From: a virus
Taxonomy: Duplodnaviria; Caudoviricetes
Virus record (IMG/VR): IMGVR_UViG_2706794911_000004
Span: 32,001-96,000 of that record
Direction: 5' to 3' (one strand)
Length of the DNA stretch: 64,000 nt
Shown here: piece after piece, positions 37,788 to 53,365 of the stretch
How the letters are laid out: each line of letters opens with the position of its first letter
How positions within the stretch are numbered: the first letter of the stretch is position 1
Program-made: the position numbers and the translations under genes
Notes under the pieces: generated by a model
Told to the model about the DNA's origin: nothing
The model's database searches: none
Seen by the model: the letters and a program-made list of their open reading frames with translations, nothing else

Positions 37788-38504
37788 GTGAGATACTCTA
37801 AATGTAATGATTGTGTATTTAGTCACAGATGTGATATGAAAGGCAAAGAAGGTATAATACAAGAAGAAAGGGGTAGACTTTTTCAGTGTGCTATTTGTCA
37901 TAAGTATAACGCAGTAAATGAATGTTATAATGGAATGAATATCCCCCCGATATATAAAGAAGCTAGTATAGCTAATATATACAAAGAAAGATTGAAGGAT
38001 TTATTTAATGAACTCTTTACCCCACCCACCAAAATATTTGATGAAAGGTTAAATATTATATTACATGGTACCATGATGGGAGCAGGTAAAACATATGCTG
38101 GCTGTGCAATGTTAAATGAGTTCCTGTACTTTATAATAGAGCATATTAACTTATTAGCATTAAAAAAAGATAAAGAGATAAGTGAACTAGACCCTATATA
38201 CTTTATAAGATTCAGGGACCTATCAGAGCAGGCAAGAAACTTTAGATTCGACTATGAGACAAAAGAAATGCTTAGAAAAGCTAAGGAATCTTGGTTAGTC
38301 TTGCTAGACGATGTTGAGGTAACTCCTGACGATATACACTCAATAAACCTATTATCAGACATTATAGAGTCTAGATACAACATAGGTAAGCCCACTATAA
38401 TAACTACAAGTATGGACGATATAATCGACATCGAAGCAATGTTTACAGCTAAAGCATGGTCTAGATTAAATAATAATATTAAGATAATGAGACTCACAAA
38501 ATAG
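37788..38504 (+). CDS. DnaC/IstB-like AAA+ helicase loader
   Basis: Walker A GAGKT, Walker B LVLLDD, IIESRY..KPTIITTS, WSRL; N-terminal Cys cluster. Confidence 0.85.
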   Translation: MRYSKCNDCVFSHRCDMKGKEGIIQEERGRLFQCAICHKYNAVNECYNGMNIPPIYKEASIANIYKERLKDLFNELFTPPTKIFDERLNIILHGTMMGAGKTYAGCAMLNEFLYFIIEHINLLALKKDKEISELDPIYFIRFRDLSEQARNFRFDYETKEMLRKAKESWLVLLDDVEVTPDDIHSINLLSDIIESRYNIGKPTIITTSMDDIIDIEAMFTAKAWSRLNNNIKIMRLTK

Positions 38505-38514
38505 CTACTACTTG

Positions 38515-38538
38515 AAGGCCCCTCACCTAGAGGGGCTT
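38515..38538. terminator. Bidirectional terminator between convergent replication genes
   Basis: gcccctc-accta-gaggggc hairpin. Confidence 0.65.
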
Positions 38539-38543
38539 ATTTA

Positions 38544-39929
38544 CTAGAATTCATAGTAATCTACTTTAACTTCCCTATTATTAGGGACACTGGAGTGGTC
38601 TGTATCCTTCTGAAACAGCTTATGCGTATTCTTAGCTTTCCACTGTTCACCTAAATACATATTATAAACGCCCTTTATTATAAAATTATTTAGCTTATAT
38701 GGGTACTTTCCCCCCGCCTTTTCTACATTTTTAAAAGAGTCAAGTAGGTCATTTAGAGAATATTTCTCTCTTGCCTCCACATAACTATCTAAAAACTCAC
38801 TAGTCATGTCACTATTAGTCATTTTAGTAAAAGGATATGCTTTATTAATACCTTTTAGCTCTTCCCTTAACAGCTCTTCACCTATACCTAACTTATCAGC
38901 ATATATCTTCAAGGACTTCTCACTACTAGACTTCTTTTTGGTGGCGGGCTTAGGATAGCCTCTATTAATAATATTTTCAATAATATCTACACTAACGAAA
39001 CTAGTAGGACACATTAACTTATTAGTACCCTCTTCAAGTTGTTTAAGGTACATATCTAAAGCCTTCATTATATCGTTATGAGTATAAGCCTTTACACAAT
39101 CAATATAACCTAAATAGAAGTTCCTTAACTTACTGCCTTCCTTGAGAGACATTCTATTAGGGATAATATCTAATAGCTCAAGACTATTCTCTATAACATC
39201 TAGAGTAGTATGCTTCATCAAGTAGCTAAATAGAGCATCATCACCTACAAACATTGGAGGTCTTTTCAATTGAATTTCATTATCATCTGCCCCCTCCTTA
39301 GATTTCTGGGGTAAAATAATACTATTTTCTAAATGCGAAGCATTATCAGTTGTGCTAACACTATAGGCTATAGGAGAATTATTTTCTGCTACCTTTAGCT
39401 CATCGTTTAACTTATTTCCATAATTATCCATATGACCTGTATGTTTTGTATGTTTAGAAGAAGTCTCTGAAGAAGTCTCTGTATTACTAGAGCTAGTCAA
39501 TTTGACAAATTGGCTTTGGCAATCTGACAAATTGGCTTTGTCATTTTGACTAAGGGGAATTGTTAATCCGAGAACATTTTCAGTATTTTTAAAGATATCA
39601 TCTAGCACTTTATAATCAATTCTATACCACTTCGTTCTGTCAGAGGCAACAAGGTTATATTTGTCACTTGTTATTAGCAGTTTCTTAGTCTCCAGTTTTT
39701 TTATAGCTCTGACAATGGTGCTGTTACTCCAGAATGGGAAGTTCTTTTCCCATTCTACGTAGCTATTATACGTCCAATAGTAACCATCTCTTAAATTGCT
39801 GTTTTTTGCTTTATTTTTTAGTACCCAGTAGTTAATTTGTTGTAATATTATAGCCTCGTTTAGACCTATCTCAGCCGCTAGTTCTGGTATTACTACCAAT
39901 GGTTGGGAGTCTAATAATATTTTACTCAA
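38544..39929 (-). CDS. Phage replication initiator (winged-helix N-terminus)
   Basis: LAAEIGLNEAIILQQINYW...WTYNSY..W...FPFWS..TI.RAIKKLE...DRTKWY.IDY. Confidence 0.85.
   Translation of the reverse strand: MSKILLDSQPLVVIPELAAEIGLNEAIILQQINYWVLKNKAKNSNLRDGYYWTYNSYVEWEKNFPFWSNSTIVRAIKKLETKKLLITSDKYNLVASDRTKWYRIDYKVLDDIFKNTENVLGLTIPLSQNDKANLSDCQSQFVKLTSSSNTETSSETSSKHTKHTGHMDNYGNKLNDELKVAENNSPIAYSVSTTDNASHLENSIILPQKSKEGADDNEIQLKRPPMFVGDDALFSYLMKHTTLDVIENSLELLDIIPNRMSLKEGSKLRNFYLGYIDCVKAYTHNDIMKALDMYLKQLEEGTNKLMCPTSFVSVDIIENIINRGYPKPATKKKSSSEKSLKIYADKLGIGEELLREELKGINKAYPFTKMTNSDMTSEFLDSYVEAREKYSLNDLLDSFKNVEKAGGKYPYKLNNFIIKGVYNMYLGEQWKAKNTHKLFQKDTDHSSVPNNREVKVDYYEF
39496..39550. repeat. Iterons inside the initiator gene (putative origin)
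   Basis: GTCAATTTGAC, GGCAATCTGAC, GTCATTTTGAC at 22-bp period; TGACAAATTGGCTTTG twice. Confidence 0.65.
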
Positions 39930-40653: not shown

Positions 40654-42372
40654 TTATCTCCTGTTATTAGCACCTGCTATAATCGGCATACTCCAATTCT
40701 CTACTGCTTCTGGTTCATCTGTTGAACAAATCCATGCCGCCCCGCACCTAGCATCTGAGAAGTCTTTGCTACCACCTTTCTTTACTGGCGGGTGGTCTAT
40801 TTTATTTCCATTAATTAACTGAATATACTTTAATTCCTCATTAGCATTTCTACGCTTATCTTCCGGGTCATCTATCGTATGATCCAGTAGCTCTATATTA
40901 GACGTATATATTAGCCCTTTTAGATTCTGGTATATCTGTACTTGGAATGGGTTAGAGAAGTTTTTGTCTTCCGCGTCCACCCCGTACATCATCAACCTCT
41001 GCACTACATCTGCAGAGTTAAATTTATCAAATATAGCCTTTTTAACAAATACCTGTGTGCATATCTGCTCCAGTATATCTGCTACATTTAGTAAGTCTAC
41101 TGGTAACCTGTCTTTTTTGGATGGCTTCCATTCTATGAGTAAATCCTCTACAGGTTTGTTTACCCATTTACTTACTGTCTCCCCCTCCTCAGTTACTTCT
41201 ATGAGGGTGGGCTCCCCATGCATTAAACAAATCGCATAACTGTCTGTATTTACCCCACCGTCCCCGCCAATGTAGTAAGTGTAAGCAGGGTCAAGTACAA
41301 GATTATGCAACTGTAATCCAGTAAAATGCTTCTGTACCCCATTATGGAGGGTGCGGGTGGTGATAACCTCTTCTATTATTAAACCAGAACATTGTGCTTT
41401 CTTACCCAGTTGTATTGCATCATCTATACGCTCTGGGAACTTAAATAATCCCTCTGCATATTTAGGTGCTATACACTCGTACTTAAGGGCAGAGCCTTCA
41501 GGGTCCCTTTCGTAGTCTTTCTGTAAGCTTTCCCTGCTAATAGTTGGATTAACCTCCCAAGAGGCACCTGTTATACCGTATACTTGCGGATCTGTAAATG
41601 ACTCATTAAACTTCATGTTCATCATGTCCCCCTCATGGCGGGGGTAACTAATGAAAATTAGTAAAATATTATTATTATACCTCGATAGCGCAGACGACCT
41701 TAATATTGAATATGAGTCCTCCGCTTTCTCTGGTTCAAATCCTGCAATCTCGTCAAATATTACAACCAATGGGTTGAAACCCTCAAAAGAGTCTGCCTCG
41801 GAGTGGGCGGAGTGGGCGGTTATGTTCTTATAAAATCTTACTTGATTTTTAGTTGTCTGGAACTCGTTAGGTAATGCACCTGGTGTTTCAGCGGGATTGT
41901 ATAGTACCTTCTTAAACCATCCACAGTTAGTGAGGCGGGCCTTGAACTTCTTAAAAAATACACTGTTAGCTTGGTACGCATTAATTGCTACGTTAATAAC
42001 GTCGATTGGTTCATCTTGGCCGAAGTTGAAATAACCTTGAGGGTCATTCATGCAACACAGAATATAACACATATATGCCAAAATTCCACTGGCAAGAAAG
42101 TCCTTACCACTACCTTTTCCCAGCATGCATGCGATTTCTGTTATTTGTTGTAATGTTTCATCACAAGCTGTTTTATCGCCTGTAAGTTTATACTGGATCA
42201 CATCGTTTACCACTTCAAGTAACTCTGTTTGCTTTCCAGGGTAGGGGGATTCACCTAAATAATCTTTGCTTTTAAAGAAAGTAACTAGATCAACTGGGTC
42301 CTCTCGCCATGCACCAGTTTTTACTATATTATTCTCAGCTAGATTAATAAAATCTTGTAATAAGTTCTTCAT
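40654..42372 (-). CDS. terL: Terminase large subunit
   Basis: Walker A GKGSGKD, Walker B VIFDE, RNase H-like nuclease with IDHP...SKDFSDA. Confidence 0.92.
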   Translation of the reverse strand: MKNLLQDFINLAENNIVKTGAWREDPVDLVTFFKSKDYLGESPYPGKQTELLEVVNDVIQYKLTGDKTACDETLQQITEIACMLGKGSGKDFLASGILAYMCYILCCMNDPQGYFNFGQDEPIDVINVAINAYQANSVFFKKFKARLTNCGWFKKVLYNPAETPGALPNEFQTTKNQVRFYKNITAHSAHSEADSFEGFNPLVVIFDEIAGFEPEKAEDSYSILRSSALSRYNNNILLIFISYPRHEGDMMNMKFNESFTDPQVYGITGASWEVNPTISRESLQKDYERDPEGSALKYECIAPKYAEGLFKFPERIDDAIQLGKKAQCSGLIIEEVITTRTLHNGVQKHFTGLQLHNLVLDPAYTYYIGGDGGVNTDSYAICLMHGEPTLIEVTEEGETVSKWVNKPVEDLLIEWKPSKKDRLPVDLLNVADILEQICTQVFVKKAIFDKFNSADVVQRLMMYGVDAEDKNFSNPFQVQIYQNLKGLIYTSNIELLDHTIDDPEDKRRNANEELKYIQLINGNKIDHPPVKKGGSKDFSDARCGAAWICSTDEPEAVENWSMPIIAGANNRR

Positions 42373-42929
42373 CTGCCACCACCACCGAACATATCACCAA
42401 ACCACTTAGTACCTTTTTTATTTTTTAATTTATCTATTATAATAGGTATTGCTTCGGGTGAAACCTCTTTTACTGTTTCCATGATAATTTCCATAAACTG
42501 TTTTATGTTGTCATAGTCACTAATTTCTCTCTGTATCTCTATCATTAGCTTTAGTGTTTCCCGCATCTCACCTGAAATAGCCTTAAAGTGATGTGGATTC
42601 ATTACCCTACCTTTGTCTGCTGCTGCTTCTTCCATAGTGTCAAGTATATTTCTTGCTTTACTATACAAGTCAGAAGTCTCACGCACTATATCTATATTGT
42701 TATTTACAACTTCTACTAGTCTTTTTTCGTTACTTTTTACTACTTCCTTGCTTATTCCCGCCACCTTTTCAATAAACCTACTAACAGTGGCTGCACTTAA
42801 TTCCTCACCATCAGGCAGCTTACCAGAAGATGTTATCTCATCTACAATTTGTCTGTATGTTAACCCACTGTAGTATAGAGAAGCTATTTCTTCTTCTAGT
42901 TTGTACTTCTCTATTTTAGATTGTGCCAT
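42369..42929 (-). CDS. terS: Terminase small subunit
   Basis: N-terminal HTH, helical, overlaps the terL start. Confidence 0.65.
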   Translation of the reverse strand: MAQSKIEKYKLEEEIASLYYSGLTYRQIVDEITSSGKLPDGEELSAATVSRFIEKVAGISKEVVKSNEKRLVEVVNNNIDIVRETSDLYSKARNILDTMEEAAADKGRVMNPHHFKAISGEMRETLKLMIEIQREISDYDNIKQFMEIIMETVKEVSPEAIPIIIDKLKNKKGTKWFGDMFGGGGR

Positions 42930-42986: not shown

Positions 42987-43016
42987 CTTAACTTTCAGCG
43001 GCGGGCGCGGTATATA
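42987..43016 (+). promoter_or_regulatory. Phage-specific promoter CTTAACT-N15-GGTATATA
   Basis: Perfect consensus at the strand-switch point. Confidence 0.75.
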
Positions 43017-43175
43017 ATAATGTACCAAAATTATAATCCTCCGTTATATTTTGTGTTTCGCCTTCCCCTCTCCAATGCAGGTTGGGGGAGGTGCTACATA
43101 ACCGGTAGAGATATAGATGCTCTGTCGCTAGTGGCTAAAAGTTAAGCCTTAAATTTTAATTCGAGGAGGAGTAAA

Positions 43176-43940
43176 ATGAAAAATTTGCAAGTAATTCGAG
43201 GTGTAAGAGGTTATTTAGACGGAGATGGCGTTGCAATGCTAAATTTGGAAGACTGTGCTAGAGGATTAGGCTTCACAGAAACTAAAGGTGACTACATTAG
43301 ATGGTAGAGACTAGAGGGATACCTAGCGGAATTTGATTTCTCCACTTGTGGAGAAAGGCCAGAGTACATCCCAGAAAACATTTTTTACAGGTTATGTATG
43401 AAAGCGAAAAATGCAGTAGCAGAAGCTTTTCAAGCTAAGGTGGCTGATGAGATTCTACCAGCCGTTAGAAAGCATGGCGCGTACATGACAACAGAGGTGA
43501 TTGAAAAGACATTGTCCGATCCTGATTTCATCATTGGTTTAGCTACTGCATTAAAGGAAGAAAAACAAAAGCGTATGGCGGCGGAGGCAGAGATTCAAGT
43601 TATGCAGCCTAAAGCACTATTCGCTGATTCAGTATCAGCATCTAGTACCACTATCTTAGTAGCAGATCTGGCAAAGTTATTAAAACAAAATGGTATCGAC
43701 ACTGGGGAGAAAAGATTATACGCATGGCTTCGTGAAAATGGTTATCTGATAAAAAGAAAGTGTGCCGATTATAACATGCCCGCTCAAAGGTCTATGGACT
43801 TAGGACTATTTGAGATTAACGAATCTACCATCAATAGACCAGACAAAGAACCAATTATTAGAAAAACCACTCGTGTAACAGGTAAAGGGCAGCAGTACTT
43901 CATAGATAAATTTATAAAGCATTTAGCTAGTGAATTTTAG
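43176..43940 (+). pseudogene. Bro-N-like/KilA-C (ANT) antirepressor with in-frame amber at codon 44
   Basis: RBS GAGGAGG + ATG 43176; LNLEDCARGLGF...IRW-TAG(43305-43307)-RLEGYL...IPENIFYRL in frame with the 43398 ORF; C-terminal TTRVTGKGQQYF. Confidence 0.8.
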
Positions 43941-43989
43941 CAGGGAGCCTCTAAACAGCTCTCTTGTGTTTAGAAGAAGGGGCGGCAAT

Positions 43990-44256
43990 ATGGAAGTGCA
44001 AATAGAAAAGATAGTAGCGGAACTACTAATAAAACAATTAAAAACAGAAAAAATACGTGTACTTATAATAGGAAGAAACTGAAAAGGTTTTAAACTAGGA
44101 CTTGCTCCGGGGGAGCAGAGGCAGAATGATGTTTTAATTCAATTACATGGTATAGATTTTTTAATTGAACAGCCTTTATACGATAGGTTAAATAGTATTA
44201 GAGTGTATTTAGCAGGACCAAACTTTCATGCTATATATGTAGAAAAGCCCAAATGA
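43990..44256 (+). CDS. HesB/IscA-like selenoprotein (UGA=Sec at codon 31)
   Basis: MEVQIEKIVAELLIKQLKTEKIRVLIIGRN-U-KGFKLGLAPGEQRQNDVLIQLHGIDFLIE...; TGA at 44080-44082; hairpin TGCTCC-GGG-GGAGCA at 44103-44117. Confidence 0.7.
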
Positions 44257-44275
44257 TACGTCTTTTTGGGCTTTT
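44243..44275 (+). terminator. Intrinsic terminator
   Basis: aaaagcccaaa...tttgggctttt. Confidence 0.65.
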
Positions 44276-44431
44276 GTTCCATCTCTAAACCTCGCATTGT
44301 TTCGTTAAAAATATTGATTTTTAAAAAAGTTATTCACATTTTTATAAAATTTAGTTTCACAATTGCCTGAAAACCATTATATTTTGCAGGACTAAAGTCC
44401 TGCTGTTTGTCGAAACTTGCGGTAGAAAGTT

Positions 44432-44458
44432 GCAGGACTTTGGTTTGTTTTGGAGAAT
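44432..44458 (+). promoter_or_regulatory. SigH-like promoter (GCAGGA...GAAT)
   Basis: gcagga-ctttggtttgttttgga-gaat resembles Firmicute sigma-H AGGA/GAAT; palindrome gcaggactaaagtcctgc upstream. Confidence 0.45.
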
Positions 44459-44465
44459 CGAGTAG

Positions 44466-45059
44466 GTGGGAGGTGATATTGTGGACTATGAGGTTGTTAA
44501 ACCAAATCTAATTACGCAATGCAAGAAGGAGAAAGAGTTCAATAAGAGGATGCAGAAGACCTTAGGGAAGAGAATGAAAAGAATGTCTAGTCTTACCTTA
44601 TCTTATTCACAATGTTTGCCAATAACCGAGTTATCTGGAAATTTGCGTTTACTTATACATCAACATGAAAAAGGATTCTCATTTAAAATTGTTAGTACCT
44701 CAGAAAAGATAGGTTATGTATTTGCTTTACTAGAAGAAGAAATAGTGAACGTCTATTTTGTAGATGGCGAAGAAATTTTTGAGGAAAGGTCTGTGATTGG
44801 TCGAGGTATTATCGGAACTTTAGTAGCGGGTCCCTTAGGTGCTATTATTGGTGGTCTTAGTGGCCTAAGTCAAGCAAAGGCACAAGATAAATATATGATT
44901 ATAAAAACCAATGAATATAACATTATTTTTAAATTTATATTATTTGAGAAGCTTCAAATTGGGATACTTCAAAAAGATTTTAAAAAAGCTTTGAAAGAAA
45001 AAATAATAACAAAAGATTCTAAAAGACAACAAGAACTGAAATTTTTGGATAAACTATAA
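44466..45059 (+). CDS. Low-GC moron membrane protein with glycine-zipper motif
   Basis: GRGIIGTLVAGPLGAIIGGLSG; own promoter; very AT-rich codons. Confidence 0.6.
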   Translation: MGGDIVDYEVVKPNLITQCKKEKEFNKRMQKTLGKRMKRMSSLTLSYSQCLPITELSGNLRLLIHQHEKGFSFKIVSTSEKIGYVFALLEEEIVNVYFVDGEEIFEERSVIGRGIIGTLVAGPLGAIIGGLSGLSQAKAQDKYMIIKTNEYNIIFKFILFEKLQIGILQKDFKKALKEKIITKDSKRQQELKFLDKL

Positions 45060-47806: not shown

Positions 47807-48484
47807 CTAATCATTAGTAAGAATGTTGTAACAATCTGTTACAATTTCAATCTGGTGTAACACATCGTCAATTGCATCATGCGCGTTGTTGTTTTCATAT
47901 CTTGCCAGAAACTGCTCTCTTGTCTTGCCTACCTTAGTGTAAGCCAGCTCTAAAATTGTCCTCACGTCTCTATCGTTCCTGTAGTTTATAGGGTACTTAA
48001 GTCCGAGATTCTCCATCTGAGTTCTAATGAGGTTGTTATCAAACAGTGTCCCATCCCCCCACAAGTATACGGCACCTTCCTGCTCGTTCAGCCACCTACA
48101 AAAACATCTAACTAAATCATCACTTGACATACTTCCTCTATTTAAAATATCCTGTAGAAGCTCTTTATTGGTGTTTAGCCACCACTTAATAGTTGATCCG
48201 GTTGTTTTCATTGTTTCATTCATAGTAATATTTGCACATTCGTTAAATATTCTTCCTACATACCCTGTTCTAATATCAAATGTGGCGGCTGCAAGCTGGA
48301 TAATATTAGAATCAGGTTTATTACCTAGTGTCTCAATATCAACCATAATATCTGTTCTACTTGAAACTGCGGGCGGGTAGTCATCAGCTTTTATAATAAC
48401 CTCAGTGACTACCCTCCTCTCTTTACGCCATCCTTCTTCGCTCTTAATATAAACGTCTCTTTCCACATTCTCATTAATTCCCAT
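47807..48484 (-). CDS. 3'-5' exonuclease, DEDDh (Rv2179c/DUF5051-like)
   Basis: MVDIETLG, LWGDG..FD, RDVRT, HDAIDD. Confidence 0.85.
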   Translation of the reverse strand: MGINENVERDVYIKSEEGWRKERRVVTEVIIKADDYPPAVSSRTDIMVDIETLGNKPDSNIIQLAAATFDIRTGYVGRIFNECANITMNETMKTTGSTIKWWLNTNKELLQDILNRGSMSSDDLVRCFCRWLNEQEGAVYLWGDGTLFDNNLIRTQMENLGLKYPINYRNDRDVRTILELAYTKVGKTREQFLARYENNNAHDAIDDVLHQIEIVTDCYNILTND

Positions 48485-52504: not shown

Positions 52505-53365
52505 TTGCAAATGGAAGAAATTAGAGGTTTTAAAGTTTTTAATCCTGACTGGACTTGTAGAGAGTTTCAATATGAAGTGGGTCAAACGTATAAGCAGGAA
52601 AGAAAACCAAGTATTTGTGACACTGGATTTCACTTTTGTAAAGAAGCAAAGGATTGTTTCAACTATTACAGATTTGACCCAAACAATAAGGTTGCAGAAG
52701 TTGTTGCACTAGGTGAAATTGCAGAAGAAGGTGACAAATGCAGCACTAACAAGATTGAAATTGTCAGGGAAATTCCTTGGGGTGAACTGCTATCTTTGGT
52801 GAACCTTGGAAAAGGCAATTCAGGTCTTTGCAACAGCGGTGATTGGAACAGCGGTGATTGGAACAGCGGTAATTGCAACAGCGGTGATTGGAACAGCGGT
52901 AATCGCAACAGCGGTGATTGGAACAGCGGTGATTGGAACAGCGGTGATTGGAACAGCGGTAATCGCAACAGCGGTGATTGCAACAGCGGTAATCGCAACA
53001 GCGGTGATTGGAACAAGGCTTCCAATGTTGCAGGGTGTTTCAATACAGAGCAGCACAAATTAGTGTTCTTTGACAAAGAAACAGACATGACCTTTGAACA
53101 ATGGAGAATGTCAGATGCATATTACTTAATGAGCCAAATTGATTTCAGACCTACTGAATGGATTTATGAAGAAGATATGACTGATGAAGAAAAGGCGGCA
53201 CACCCTGAATATGAAACAACAGGCGGTTATTTGAAGAAACGTAACAATAAAGATTCATGCATTAACTGGTGGAACGGACTGCCCGAAGCAAGAAGAGATG
53301 TTATCAAGAGCATTCCAAACTTTGATGCTGAAAAGTTCTTTGAGATTACTGGAATCAGAGTGTAA
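52505..53365 (+). CDS. Pentapeptide (NSGDW)-repeat phage protein
   Basis: GFKVF..DWTCR.FQYEVG...GFHFC N-domain; 13 NSGxx repeats; YETTGGYLK...IPNFDAEKF.EITGI. Confidence 0.85.
   Translation: MQMEEIRGFKVFNPDWTCREFQYEVGQTYKQERKPSICDTGFHFCKEAKDCFNYYRFDPNNKVAEVVALGEIAEEGDKCSTNKIEIVREIPWGELLSLVNLGKGNSGLCNSGDWNSGDWNSGNCNSGDWNSGNRNSGDWNSGDWNSGDWNSGNRNSGDCNSGNRNSGDWNKASNVAGCFNTEQHKLVFFDKETDMTFEQWRMSDAYYLMSQIDFRPTEWIYEEDMTDEEKAAHPEYETTGGYLKKRNNKDSCINWWNGLPEARRDVIKSIPNFDAEKFFEITGIRV
52832..53011 (+). repeat. 15-bp tandem repeat, 12 copies (AACAGCGGTRATYGS)
   Basis: Directly visible; encodes NSGDW/NSGNR. Confidence 0.95.

What the first reader, a model, noticed from the sequence alone, without database searches (positions are those of the whole stretch)
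43990..44256. Hidden phage-encoded selenoprotein: HesB/IscA-like ORF with in-frame UGA and SECIS-like hairpin
Seen: an ORF missed by the track. ATG 43990 follows an RBS-like stretch, there is one in-frame TGA at 44080-44082, and the frame stays open to 44256, ending in a terminator. It reads IRVLIIGRN-[TGA]-KGFKLGLAPGEQ..NDVLIQLHGIDFLIE. Known: clostridial HesB-like selenoproteins have IR...GxG-U-GGP.LGLALDE...D.....GI.F.I, with Sec at this same position, and bacterial SECIS elements are G-loop hairpins shortly 3' of the UGA. Here TGCTCC-GGG-GGAGCA lies about 20-35 nt downstream. Inference: the phage borrows the host SelA/SelB/tRNA-Sec machinery to make a redox or Fe-S carrier, or uses Se availability as a translational switch. 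It is likely transcribed from the phage promoter at 42987. To my knowledge phage selenoproteins are scarcely described.
Basis: partly seen in the sequence, partly recalled or inferred. Interest (0 to 1): 0.9.

Follow-up and report, generated by a model that had tools for sequence, protein, structure and literature searches.

The report
Prophage-borne HesB-like selenoprotein gene
A large prophage carries a small, very divergent iron-sulfur-carrier-like gene whose internal UGA "stop" sits exactly where its bacterial relatives have selenocysteine and is followed by the same RNA hairpin, so it is probably a virus-borne selenoprotein, a kind of gene not described for bacterial viruses in the papers I could search.

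Summary
ATG 43990, in-frame TGA 44080-82, an open frame to TGA 44254-56, an RBS and a terminator are all present.

The read-through product is a homolog of the IscA/HesB selenoprotein families (NF038090, E 1.4e-9). It scores below their curated cut-offs. It models as an A-type-carrier fold.

The TGA falls in the invariant Sec/Cys column of 20 aligned homologs. The hairpin 44102-44118 is in register with a hairpin kept in 12 of 13 Sec-form relatives and mostly missing in 9 Cys forms.

The host has selA, selB, selD and tRNA-Sec, and its own TGA-bearing genes. The gene lies inside a ~110-kb GC-rich phage island.

Codon-position conservation and a neutral simulation argue that the frame was kept open by selection.

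Against: no close relative was found anywhere. The motif is U-K-G-F, not UxGP. There are no C-terminal cysteines, the branch is very long, the upstream ant gene carries an amber codon, and there are no expression data.

Verdict: a probable (~0.6) Sec-decoded accessory gene, but not a canonical Fe-S carrier.

This scan noted a phage HesB-like selenoprotein before on other DNA (e1-6027535, not checked by me).

The parts
43976..43982 (+). Shine-Dalgarno-like GAAGGGG, 7 nt before ATG 43990
   Evidence: Read directly from the sequence. The start is supported by the alignment of M1 with the starts of homologs.
43990..44256 (+). HesB/IscA-like coding sequence, 88 codons plus stop, read through one UGA
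   Evidence: Translation. NF038090 E 1.4e-9 and TIGR01911 E 2.2e-5, both below curated cut-offs. AF2 pLDDT 92.4. The Foldseek top 10 are all IscA/SufA/HesB-type chains. Codon-position identity 2>1>3 holds downstream of the TGA, though upstream the order is 2>3>1.
44080..44082 (+). In-frame TGA, candidate selenocysteine codon (residue 31)
   Evidence: It aligns with the invariant Sec/Cys column of 20 sequences. The 14 family-level genomic matches all carry 1 TGA; in the 12 recovered in full it lies at this column.
44102..44118 (+). SECIS-like hairpin: 7-bp stem (one U.G pair) with a GGG loop, -9.0 kcal/mol
   Evidence: It has the same register as the hairpin in Sec-form homologs. Covariation score is 0.356 against 0.133 for shuffled and 0.07-0.125 for slid structures. 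Sec forms keep it and Cys forms mostly do not. Rarity among TGA contexts is given. Own-composition shuffles are not significant.
44243..44281 (+). Intrinsic terminator overlapping the stop codon
   Evidence: -15.1 kcal/mol, z -3.73, followed by UUUUGUU. The pattern scan did not list it, because its loop exceeds 8 nt.
43176..43943 (+). Upstream co-oriented antirepressor (Bro-N + KilAC/ANT) gene, interrupted by an in-frame TAG at 43308-43310
   Evidence: Frame reading. ANT E 9e-34; Bro-N spans the TAG but is weak (E 0.0013, 19.8 bits, below the 25.6 cut-off). PHROG anti-repressor E 2.6e-61.
40654..42929 (-). Small-terminase-position gene (42369-42929) and large terminase (40654-42372), the start of the phage structural module that runs leftwards
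   Evidence: PHROG hits. Portal, major head, tape measure and tail genes lie further left. terL is 58-69% identical to 10 IMG/VR loci and 50% identical to Brevibacillus phage Jenst.

Best explanation
This is a real protein-coding accessory gene of a ~110-kb integrated phage. It descends from the bacterial IscA/HesB-type selenoprotein family.

Proposed mechanism:
1. The mRNA carries UGA at codon 31.
2. A 7-bp G-loop hairpin sits 20 nt after the codon.
3. The host's SelB-GTP-Sec-tRNA(Sec) binds that hairpin and inserts selenocysteine.
4. The result is an 88-residue HesB-fold protein with Sec in the loop where A-type carriers have their first cluster ligand.

The protein has lost the C-terminal cysteines and the G-U-G-G-P context, so it probably does not carry an Fe-S cluster the way IscA does. 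It more likely acts through its single Sec, either as a homodimer or mixed dimer or as a selenium/redox-active small protein.

What is shown: homology, the column of the TGA, the in-register hairpin, the host machinery, the phage context, and a long-maintained open frame.

What is inferred: that Sec is actually inserted, that the gene is expressed, and any biochemical role.
For: 1. Homology on both sides of the TGA. NF038090 E 1.4e-9 covers residues 8-73, and TIGR01911 E 2.2e-5 covers residues 14-80.

2. The TGA aligns with the invariant Sec/Cys column. All five invariant columns of the 20-sequence alignment (M1, R23, U/C31, G33, D47) are kept. All 14 non-self genomic matches in the host's family have one TGA; in the 12 recovered in full it lies at this column.

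3. The hairpin is in register.
- Phage pairs: 29-45 U.G, 30-44 U-A, 31-43 G-C, 32-42 C-G, 33-41 U-A, 34-40 C-G, 35-39 C-G.
- The commonest chromosomal pairs at 30-44, 31-43 and 35-39 are G-C, U.G and U-A, so the phage differs from them by changes on both sides.
- Covariation score is 0.356 against 0.133 +/- 0.033 for shuffles (0 of 500 reach it) and 0.07-0.125 for slid structures.
- Among 13 chromosomal Sec forms, the 6 core pairs are kept 6/6 in 8, 5/6 in 4 and 4/6 in 1. Among 9 Cys forms the counts are 6/6 in 1, 4/6 in 4, 3/6 in 2 and 2/6 in 2.
- The 22-nt piece folds at -1.9 to -8.8 kcal/mol in Sec forms, 0 to -2.5 in Cys forms and -9.0 in the phage.

4. The two residues that break the family's L-D/E-E motif (LAPGE against LALDE) are the very changes that add the C-G pair and the GGG loop.

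5. Host machinery.
- selA scores 634 bits, selB 383 bits and selD 396 bits; selD has a TGA of its own.
- tRNA-Sec lies beside them on contig C16.
- The host also has grdA x2 and its own HesB-like gene, each with one TGA.

6. The frame has been maintained.
- Nucleotide identity to homologs is 45-49%.
- Downstream of the TGA, identity by codon position is 0.447, 0.545 and 0.372 over 969 codon pairs.
- In a neutral substitution-only simulation to the same divergence, no new stop appears in only 0.12-0.28% of 5000 runs for each of 4 starting genes.

7. The RBS and a terminator bracket the gene.

8. Fold. AF2 gives pLDDT 92.4 and pTM 0.81. Foldseek ranks 1-10 are YneR, HI1723, SufA, IscA, DsrR and AQ_1857, with TM 0.60-0.73.

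9. Phage context.
- terS/terL lie 1 kb to the left, and ant is in the same orientation.
- PHROG-type genes lie to the right.
- The GC island spans C28 ~18-128 kb, with recombinases at 19.5-25.7 kb.
Against: - There is only one sequence of this variant. No relative above 36% identity was found in 36 family, 401 order or 401 class genomes, in 1.84 billion representative proteins, in IMG/VR, GTDB contigs or JGI metagenomes, or in GenBank phages. Conservation of this particular gene and hairpin therefore cannot be shown.
- Scores are far below the curated cut-offs (38.1 against 85, and 25 against 66.35), and Pfam gives nothing.
- The nearly invariant G30 and P34 are lost, the motif is U-K-G-F rather than UxGP, and the protein has no Cys and no C-terminal Cys tail.
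- The terminal branch is 1.82 against a median of 0.2. This is compatible with relaxed constraint.
- The adjacent upstream ant gene has a premature TAG. The cassette may therefore be decaying, and polarity could lower expression.
- The hairpin is not exceptional against shuffles of its own G+C-rich piece (z -0.89).
- The nine Cys-form controls are close kin of one another, so the Sec-versus-Cys contrast counts few independent events.
- Related ~103-kb phages lack the gene.
- No RNA data exist.
Confidence: 0.6

Rival explanations
1. Relic: the gene was a working selenoprotein gene in an ancestor of the phage but is now inactive or on its way out. Translation ends at UGA 44080, leaving a 30-residue peptide, and the downstream homology and hairpin are leftovers.
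For: - The family's near-invariant G30 and P34 and all C-terminal Cys are lost.
- The branch is very long.
- The neighbouring ant gene is broken by TAG.
- There are no relatives.
- Related phages lack the gene.
- Gene callers keep only the 30-aa piece (P0002).
- Hairpin z is only -0.89 against its own shuffles.
Against: - At 45-49% nucleotide identity a neutral sequence would almost always have picked up stops; only 0.12-0.28% of simulations stay open, with indels not even modelled.
- The 2>1>3 codon-position pattern holds downstream of the TGA.
- All five family-invariant residues are kept.
- The hairpin is the most stable of the 14 Sec-form sequences and carries compensatory pairs.
- The RBS and terminator are intact.

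Inactivation could therefore only be very recent, and nothing in the sequence shows it.
Confidence: 0.27
2. The UGA is read through without selenocysteine (near-cognate Trp or Cys insertion, or a recoded stop in the phage). This would give a full-length protein that is not a selenoprotein.
For: Low-level UGA read-through is common in bacteria (established knowledge). The frame is open and conserved past the TGA.
Against: - The phage is not stop-recoded: its large structural ORFs (up to 1834 aa) are open under table 11.
- Among 46 TGA-split ORF candidates in the 110-kb island, this one ranks second by hairpin. The first lies in a non-coding leader just downstream.
- No tRNA is found in the window.
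- The TGA lies in the Sec/Cys column with a SECIS-position hairpin, in a host with full Sec machinery.
Confidence: 0.05
3. Not a phage gene: a host or other mobile-element gene that merely lies next to phage DNA.
For: - Right-flank genes (47807-48484 and 52505-53365) have no match in the two near-complete related phage genomes.
- The slot upstream of terS holds other genes in those phages.
- IS66-like ORFs were noted at 53.6-55.0 kb by another first-stage note.
Against: - The gene sits 1 kb from terS/terL and directly after a phage antirepressor gene in the same orientation.
- PHROG families continue to the right: phrog_355, phrog_255, phrog_6721 (E 1e-57) and phrog_14105 (E 7e-121).
- The raised-GC island runs from C28 ~18 kb to ~128 kb, and the gene is at 99.9 kb, about 28 kb inside it.
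- In the tree it groups with the IscA_HesB_Se-type genes of another family (UFBoot 97, SH-aLRT 90), not with the host's own copy; the placement of so long a branch is unsure.
Confidence: 0.08

Closest known systems
Bacterial HesB-like / IscA_HesB_Se selenoproteins (NCBIfam TIGR01911 and NF038090). The 'HesB-like' family appears in Zhang et al. 2006 (PMC1794560, passages read) and in the 2026 review PMC13188914 (passages read; motif given there as UxGP).
   Same: - Significant HMM similarity.
- Same predicted fold.
- TGA in the same column.
- Hairpin at the same offset and register.
- Same small size (88 aa against 94-111 aa).
- Decoded, if at all, by the same host machinery that serves the host's own copy at C51:25192-25476.
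   Different: - Scores are below both curated cut-offs.
- The motif is U-K-G-F, not U-x-G-P, and N replaces the G before Sec.
- There are no C-terminal Cys or CxxC-type tails and no Cys at all.
- The branch is 9 times the median length.
- It is located in a prophage, not in a chromosomal context.
A-type Fe-S carriers IscA/SufA/ErpA (Pfam PF01521; PDB 1x0g, 2d2a, 1r94, 1s98)
   Same: Fold-level match, TM 0.60-0.71. There are weak HMM hits to ErpA and TIGR00049 (E 0.0016 and 0.0022). The first ligand position is occupied, by Sec.
   Different: Two of the three cluster-ligand cysteines are absent (the three-Cys rule is recalled knowledge). PF01521 gives no hit at E <= 10.
P0003, a 99-aa hypothetical protein of Alloiococcus sp. 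CFN-8 (name as given by the tools)
   Same: It shares 35% identity with the phage protein. It has a single Cys at the Sec column, no C-terminal Cys, and a shared C-terminal G-P-x-F-H ... E-K-P. It is also an orphan on a long branch.
   Different: It has Cys, not Sec. Its context is chromosomal, among aldose epimerase-like, helicase-like, AbrB-like and methyltransferase-like ORFs as I read them, with no domain search run. The tree did not place it with the phage protein, though long-branch placement is unsure.
Small HesB-fold proteins with non-carrier roles: B. subtilis YneR (PDB 9a4q_B, modelled with pyruvate dehydrogenase E1 alpha) and A. vinosum DsrR (2k4z)
   Same: YneR is the best structural match, at rank 1 (E 3.1e-4, TM 0.67). 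DsrR is at rank 7 (TM 0.73). They show that this fold is used outside Fe-S carriage. Their biology is recalled, not read here.
   Different: No sequence-level match: YneR is not found at E <= 10 with the protein or with A1. Neither is a selenoprotein.
Selenoproteins of eukaryotic viruses (poxvirus glutathione peroxidases; recalled; reviews seen only as search listings) and tRNA-Sec-like genes reported in phages (PMC6145125 and PMC5389517, passages read)
   Same: A virus-borne gene that needs the host's Sec machinery.
   Different: Those use eukaryotic 3'-UTR SECIS elements. The phage reports concern tRNAs, not a selenoprotein gene.
Earlier notes of this scan on other DNA: e1-6027535 (phage HesB-like selenoprotein), e1-3983606 and e1-2620121 (phage tail proteins with UGA plus hairpin)
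   Same: Same kind of claim. e1-6027535 also names NF038090 as the closest family.
   Different: No sequence look-alike to this window is in the scan's index. I did not see or test those sequences.

Membership tests
HesB-like / IscA_HesB_Se selenoprotein (TIGR01911, NF038090) | HMM score at or above the curated cut-off | tested here: not met
   NF038090 scores 38.1 bits against a cut-off of 85. TIGR01911 scores 25 bits against 66.35. The E-values of 1.4e-9 and 2.2e-5 still show homology.
HesB-like / IscA_HesB_Se selenoprotein (TIGR01911, NF038090) | Sec (TGA) or Cys at the conserved first-ligand column | tested here: met
   Column C31 is invariant in the 20-sequence alignment, and the phage TGA is in it.
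HesB-like / IscA_HesB_Se selenoprotein (TIGR01911, NF038090) | UxGP motif (as listed in PMC13188914) within G-U-G-G-P | tested here: not met
   The phage reads N-U-K-G-F. G33 is kept, P34 is replaced by F, and G30 by N (motif).
HesB-like / IscA_HesB_Se selenoprotein (TIGR01911, NF038090) | C-terminal cysteine(s) | tested here: not met
   18 of the 19 other aligned sequences end in a Cys-containing tail; P0003 is the exception. The phage protein ends before it and has no Cys.
HesB-like / IscA_HesB_Se selenoprotein (TIGR01911, NF038090) | SECIS hairpin about 20 nt after the UGA in Sec forms | tested here: met
   All 6 core pairs are kept in register, with a GGG loop and -9.0 kcal/mol.
A-type Fe-S carrier (IscA/SufA/ErpA, PF01521) | Three conserved cluster-ligand cysteines (recalled rule) | tested here: not met
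   Only the first position is occupied, by Sec. There are no C-terminal Cys and no PF01521 hit.
A-type Fe-S carrier (IscA/SufA/ErpA, PF01521) | HesB/IscA fold | tested here: met
   AF2 pLDDT is 92.4. Foldseek ranks 1-10 are all of this fold. This is a predicted model built with an alignment of homologs.
Bacterial selenoprotein gene (SelB/SECIS-dependent UGA decoding) | Host encodes SelA, SelB, SelD and tRNA-Sec | tested here: met
   All lie in one cluster on C16:78211-84536, and all three proteins score above their cut-offs.
Bacterial selenoprotein gene (SelB/SECIS-dependent UGA decoding) | Selenocysteine actually inserted at the UGA | not testable with these tools
   This needs 75Se labelling, mass spectrometry or a reporter. 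No RNA run was listed.
Phage-encoded gene | Lies within a phage genome, with phage genes on both sides | tested here: met
   terS/terL, portal, head and tail genes lie to the left, and ant and PHROG families lie to the right. The gene is inside a ~110-kb GC island with recombinases at one end. Exact att ends and inducibility were not determined.

The most novel reading that the evidence does not exclude
A ~110-kb temperate phage of a selenoprotein-using anaerobe makes its own selenoprotein. The host's SelB reads a phage-borne SECIS and puts Sec into a stripped-down, single-ligand HesB-fold protein. That protein no longer carries Fe-S clusters. Instead it acts on the host's selenium or Fe-S/redox network, for instance by pairing with the host's own HesB-like selenoprotein, and its synthesis is tied to selenium supply. 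This would be one of the first bacteriophage-encoded selenoproteins and a natural case of a virus depending on the 21st-amino-acid machinery.
Probability: 0.5. Interest if true: 0.75.

Novelty: new variant of a known kind. Interest (0 to 1): 0.6.

Why it matters
Selenoprotein surveys work on cellular genomes, and the 2026 review I searched does not mention phages or viruses at all. The phrases 'phage selenoprotein', 'phage-encoded selenoprotein', 'bacteriophage selenoprotein' and 'selenoproteins in phages' occur in none of the ~8.4 million papers held.

If the gene is decoded as proposed, three things follow:
- Phages can carry SECIS-dependent genes, which adds a class of genes that phage annotation systematically truncates. 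Here only a 30-aa stub is on record.
- It gives a small, tractable test case of SECIS evolution under a double constraint. The RNA pairs are kept by compensatory changes while the protein motif gives way.
- It points to a HesB-fold protein with a single Sec and no Cys, whose chemistry cannot be that of IscA.

If the gene is a relic, it is an ordinary decaying moron and of little interest.

Tried and rejected
Searches for relatives of this variant, all empty:
- The search for homologous proteins.
- GenBank phages by tblastn.
- IMG/VR with the protein, with alignment A2 (the pattern demanded a Cys codon) and with the degenerate DNA pattern for G-U-G-G-P-x-F-G. Of the 23 stretches from that pattern, 0 look HesB-like on translation.
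- GTDB contigs (none, only the P0003 locus).
- JGI metagenomes.
- 1.84 billion representative proteins (3 hits, one of them the gene's own 30-aa stub).
- Genus (own genome only), family, order and class genomes.

Related phages:
- Five IMG/VR records found through terL have no HesB-like gene. Two of them are at least 94% complete.
- Two right-flank genes are absent from the two near-complete records. Those answers say themselves that an empty result shows little.

Other results that led nowhere:
- Rfam found nothing in the window.
- PADLOC on 7 neighbouring proteins gave only a weak REase_II hit (E 7.6e-5) for the 197-aa neighbour.
- PDB by sequence gave only HI1723 at E 0.037 and 0.0093.
- Expression: no RNA holder was listed. 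The only run is the probable source DNA, and its contig is identical to the window.
- The ant-hesB intergenic hairpin is not significant (z 0.37).
- SECIS comparison with the host's other selenoprotein genes (grdA x2, grdB x2, selD) showed hairpins of differing shape and offset, so no host consensus could be drawn.
- The promoter at 42987 is not found by the scan.
- Pyrrolysine as an explanation of the TAG in ant: the aragorn listing flagged no Pyl tRNA.
- I considered a homodimer or mixed-dimer prediction with complex prediction.

Limits: I did not request supplementary files. The supplements of PMC1794560 and PMC13188914 (family member lists) may bear on whether any listed HesB-like selenoprotein lies in a prophage.
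Full report
OBSERVATION

- ATG 43990 follows GAAGGGG (43976-43982).
- There is one in-frame TGA at 44080-44082.
- The frame then stays open for 57 more codons to TGA 44254-44256.
- That stop lies inside a strong terminator hairpin: -15.1 kcal/mol, z -3.73, 1 of 200 shuffles as good.
- Under table 11 only a 50-aa (GTG-started) or 30-aa N-terminal stub exists. The 30-aa stub is what public protein sets hold (P0002).
- A second assembly of the probable source run is identical over 43000-44400.

HOMOLOGY AND FOLD

- Read with TGA as a residue, the 88-aa product matches NCBIfam NF038090 (IscA_HesB_Se) at E 1.4e-9 (38.1 bits, residues 8-73) and TIGR01911 (HesB_rel_seleno) at E 2.2e-5 (25 bits, residues 14-80).
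- Both scores are far below the curated cut-offs of 85 and 66.35 bits. Pfam and PHROGs give nothing.
- AlphaFold2, with a 20-sequence alignment, gives pLDDT 92.4 and pTM 0.81.
- The ten best Foldseek matches in the PDB are all HesB/IscA-type chains: YneR, HI1723, SufA, IscA, DsrR and AQ_1857, at TM 0.60-0.73. Everything below rank 10 is noise.

THE TGA COLUMN

- Searching the host's taxonomic family, 15 of 36 genomes match at E <= 0.01, the host included. Each of the 14 foreign matches contains exactly one TGA.
- In the order, 149 of 401 genomes match at E <= 0.001. These are a mix of TGA forms and forms without a stop.
- I read the closest ones. They carry G-M-G-C-S-G-P (Cys) or G-M-G-U-A-G-P (Sec).
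- In the 20-sequence alignment the invariant columns are M1, R23, C/U31, G33 and D47. The phage protein keeps all five, and its TGA is the C/U column.
- It departs at the nearly invariant G30 (N) and P34 (F). It ends just before the Cys-containing C-terminal tail that 18 of the other 19 sequences have, and it contains no cysteine.
- The family motif listed in the 2026 review is UxGP (PMC13188914, passage read). Here it is U-K-G-F.

THE HAIRPIN

I aligned 60 nt around the TGA of the phage gene and 13 chromosomal Sec forms.
- A helix at columns 28-35/39-46 is shared. 82.1% of cells pair, against 70.6% in shuffles.
- The covariation score is 0.356 against 0.133 +/- 0.033 (0 of 500 shuffles reach it). 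It is 0.07-0.125 when the 3' partners are slid by 1-3 columns.
- The phage keeps every core pair in register. Relative to the commonest chromosomal pairs, it has both-sided changes at three of them (30-44, 31-43, 35-39).
- The six core pairs are kept 6/6 in 8, 5/6 in 4 and 4/6 in 1 of the 13 chromosomal Sec forms. In nine Cys forms the counts are 6/6 in 1, 4/6 in 4, 3/6 in 2 and 2/6 in 2.
- The 22-nt piece folds at -1.9 to -8.8 kcal/mol in Sec forms, 0 to -2.5 in Cys forms and -9.0 in the phage.
- The two codons that break the family's L-D/E-E motif in the phage (P and G in LAPGE) are the ones that create the extra C-G pair and the GGG loop.

Caveats on the hairpin:
- The nine Cys forms are close kin of one another.
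- The columns are coding.
- Against shuffles of its own G+C-rich 27-nt piece the hairpin is not unusual: z -0.89, 42 of 200 as good. For the 61-nt piece, z is -1.48 and 20 of 200 are as good.
- Measured instead against all 2173 TGA contexts in the window it is rare: 0.18% at the same offset, and 1.6% at any offset from +12 to +30.
- Among 46 TGA-split ORF candidates in the whole phage island it ranks second. The first is a non-coding hairpin just downstream.

HOST MACHINERY

- The window is G000:C28:55884-119883, in a 5.39-Mb genome that is 99.99% complete.
- selA (634 bits), selB (383 bits), tRNA-Sec and selD (396 bits, with a TGA of its own) lie together on C16:78211-84536.
- The host also has two grdA genes, each with a TGA.
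- It has its own canonical HesB-like selenoprotein at C51:25192-25476, reading G-F-G-U-G-G-P ... G-G-G-C-N.
- SECIS shapes in the host's other genes differ from one another, so I could draw no host consensus.

HAS THE FRAME BEEN UNDER SELECTION?

- Nucleotide identity to four homologs is 45-49%.
- Identity by codon position, summed over 17 homolog genes, is 0.367 / 0.578 / 0.398 upstream of the TGA (510 codon pairs). Downstream it is 0.447 / 0.545 / 0.372 (969 pairs). The second position is the best kept on both sides, the coding pattern.
- A substitution-only neutral simulation from each of the four homologs to the observed divergence left the frame free of new stops in 0.12-0.28% of 5000 runs each.
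- In a maximum-likelihood tree the phage protein sits on a terminal branch of 1.82 against a median of 0.2.
- In that tree it groups (97/90) with the NF038090-type genes of another family, not with the host's own copy. The placement of such a long branch is unsure.
- I read this as a gene that evolved fast but as a coding sequence. A very recent death cannot be excluded.

PHAGE CONTEXT

- To the left, on the minus strand, lie a small-terminase-position gene, terL, portal, major head, a 1834-aa tape measure and tail genes.
- terL is 58-69% identical to ten IMG/VR loci. Two of these are ~103-kb genomes, one with terminal repeats. It is 50% identical to the 126-kb Brevibacillus phage Jenst.
- Directly upstream and co-oriented is an antirepressor gene (KilAC/ANT E 9e-34). 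Its Bro-N part is interrupted by an in-frame TAG at 43308-43310.
- To the right are further PHROG families.
- G+C is raised (0.37-0.42, against 0.349 genome-wide) from C28 ~18 kb to ~128 kb. Four tyrosine-recombinase matches and a large serine recombinase lie at 19.5-25.7 kb. The gene, at C28:99.9 kb, is well inside this island.
- The related phages have no HesB-like gene and have other genes in the slot upstream of terS. This is therefore a lineage-specific accessory gene.

WHAT IT PROBABLY DOES

- With one Sec and no Cys, it cannot ligate a cluster as IscA does. The three-Cys rule is recalled knowledge.
- The nearest protein of similar build is P0003, a 99-aa chromosomal orphan with a single Cys at the same column, no C-terminal Cys and a shared G-P-x-F-H ... 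E-K-P ending (35% identity).
- The language-model atlas places P0003 near small Bacillota clusters in which 13-15% of members carry PF01521.
- The best structural match, YneR, and DsrR are HesB-fold proteins that, as I recall, act as regulators or binding partners rather than carriers. There is no sequence-level link to them.
- My best reading is a Sec-dependent small protein that works as a dimer or mixed dimer through its exposed Sec loop. This step is inference only.

NOVELTY

- Searches of the held library found no paper with 'phage selenoprotein', 'phage-encoded selenoprotein', 'bacteriophage selenoprotein', 'selenoproteins in phages' or 'phage genomes selenocysteine'. The 8 hits were all for 'viral selenoproteins' in animal-virus contexts, seen as listings only.
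- The searches 'selenoprotein + bacteriophage + SECIS', 'prophage + selenoprotein' and 'selenoprotein + phages + metagenom + Sec-containing' gave nothing on a phage selenoprotein in the titles and abstracts listed.
- The 2026 selenoproteome review has 0 occurrences of phage, prophage, virus or viral. Zhang et al. 2006 has 0 of phage.
- Phage reports concern tRNA-Sec-like genes only (PMC6145125 and PMC5389517, passages read).
- This scan has noted the same kind of thing on other DNA: e1-6027535, and phage tail proteins in e1-3983606 and e1-2620121. There is no sequence likeness to this window. I did not test those notes.

VERDICT

The selenoprotein reading is the best supported (about 0.6), and a recent relic is the main rival (about 0.27). 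The canonical Fe-S-carrier function and the proposed promoter are not supported. I class it as a new variant of a known kind, with moderate to high interest that depends on one labelling or reporter experiment.

Noticed in passing
window 43176-43943 (TAG at 43308-43310): The antirepressor gene upstream of the finding is one Bro-N + KilAC reading frame interrupted by an amber codon. No Pyl tRNA was flagged in the genome. It may be a domesticating nonsense mutation of the prophage.
   Followed up: partly
window 43030-43175: The leader upstream of ant folds strongly (-46.4 kcal/mol, z -3.03, 2 of 200 shuffles as good). A UCCUCC stretch pairs with the ant Shine-Dalgarno GGAGGA, which may be an RBS-sequestering regulatory leader.
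   Followed up: no
window 44266-44440: A non-coding stretch between the finding and the next gene (44466-45059) holds two terminator-like hairpins at 44386-44403 and 44416-44436. The first of them, starting about 14 nt after the TGA at 44368, is the strongest hairpin after a TGA in the island. This is probably a leader or attenuator, not a Sec site.
   Followed up: no
window 37788-39929: DnaC-like (+ strand) and DnaD-like (- strand) helicase-loader genes sit between the large terminase and the portal gene. This is an unusual place for replication genes.
   Followed up: no
G000:C51:25192-25476: This is the host's own canonical HesB-like selenoprotein gene (G-F-G-U-G-G-P ... G-G-G-C-N) with one TGA. 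A table-11 gene caller would cut it at the TGA; I did not check its annotation.
   Followed up: partly
L037 1465-1779 and 1857-2144; also pairs listed, e.g. G262:C7:833407-834147: Many genomes of the order carry a Cys-form and a Sec-form IscA/HesB gene side by side. This is a tandem Sec/Cys paralog pair, as known for some selenoenzymes.
   Followed up: no
G000:C28 ~18000-128000: A ~110-kb raised-GC island (0.37-0.42 against 0.349) contains the whole window's phage genes. A cluster of four tyrosine-recombinase matches and one large serine recombinase lies at 19.5-25.7 kb. This is probably the full prophage. Its ends were not mapped.
   Followed up: partly
L049 8001-8300 (P0003): A single-Cys, tail-less HesB-like orphan lies in a chromosomal context. 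With the phage protein it hints at a sparse subgroup with a G-P-x-F-H ... E-K-P ending.
   Followed up: partly
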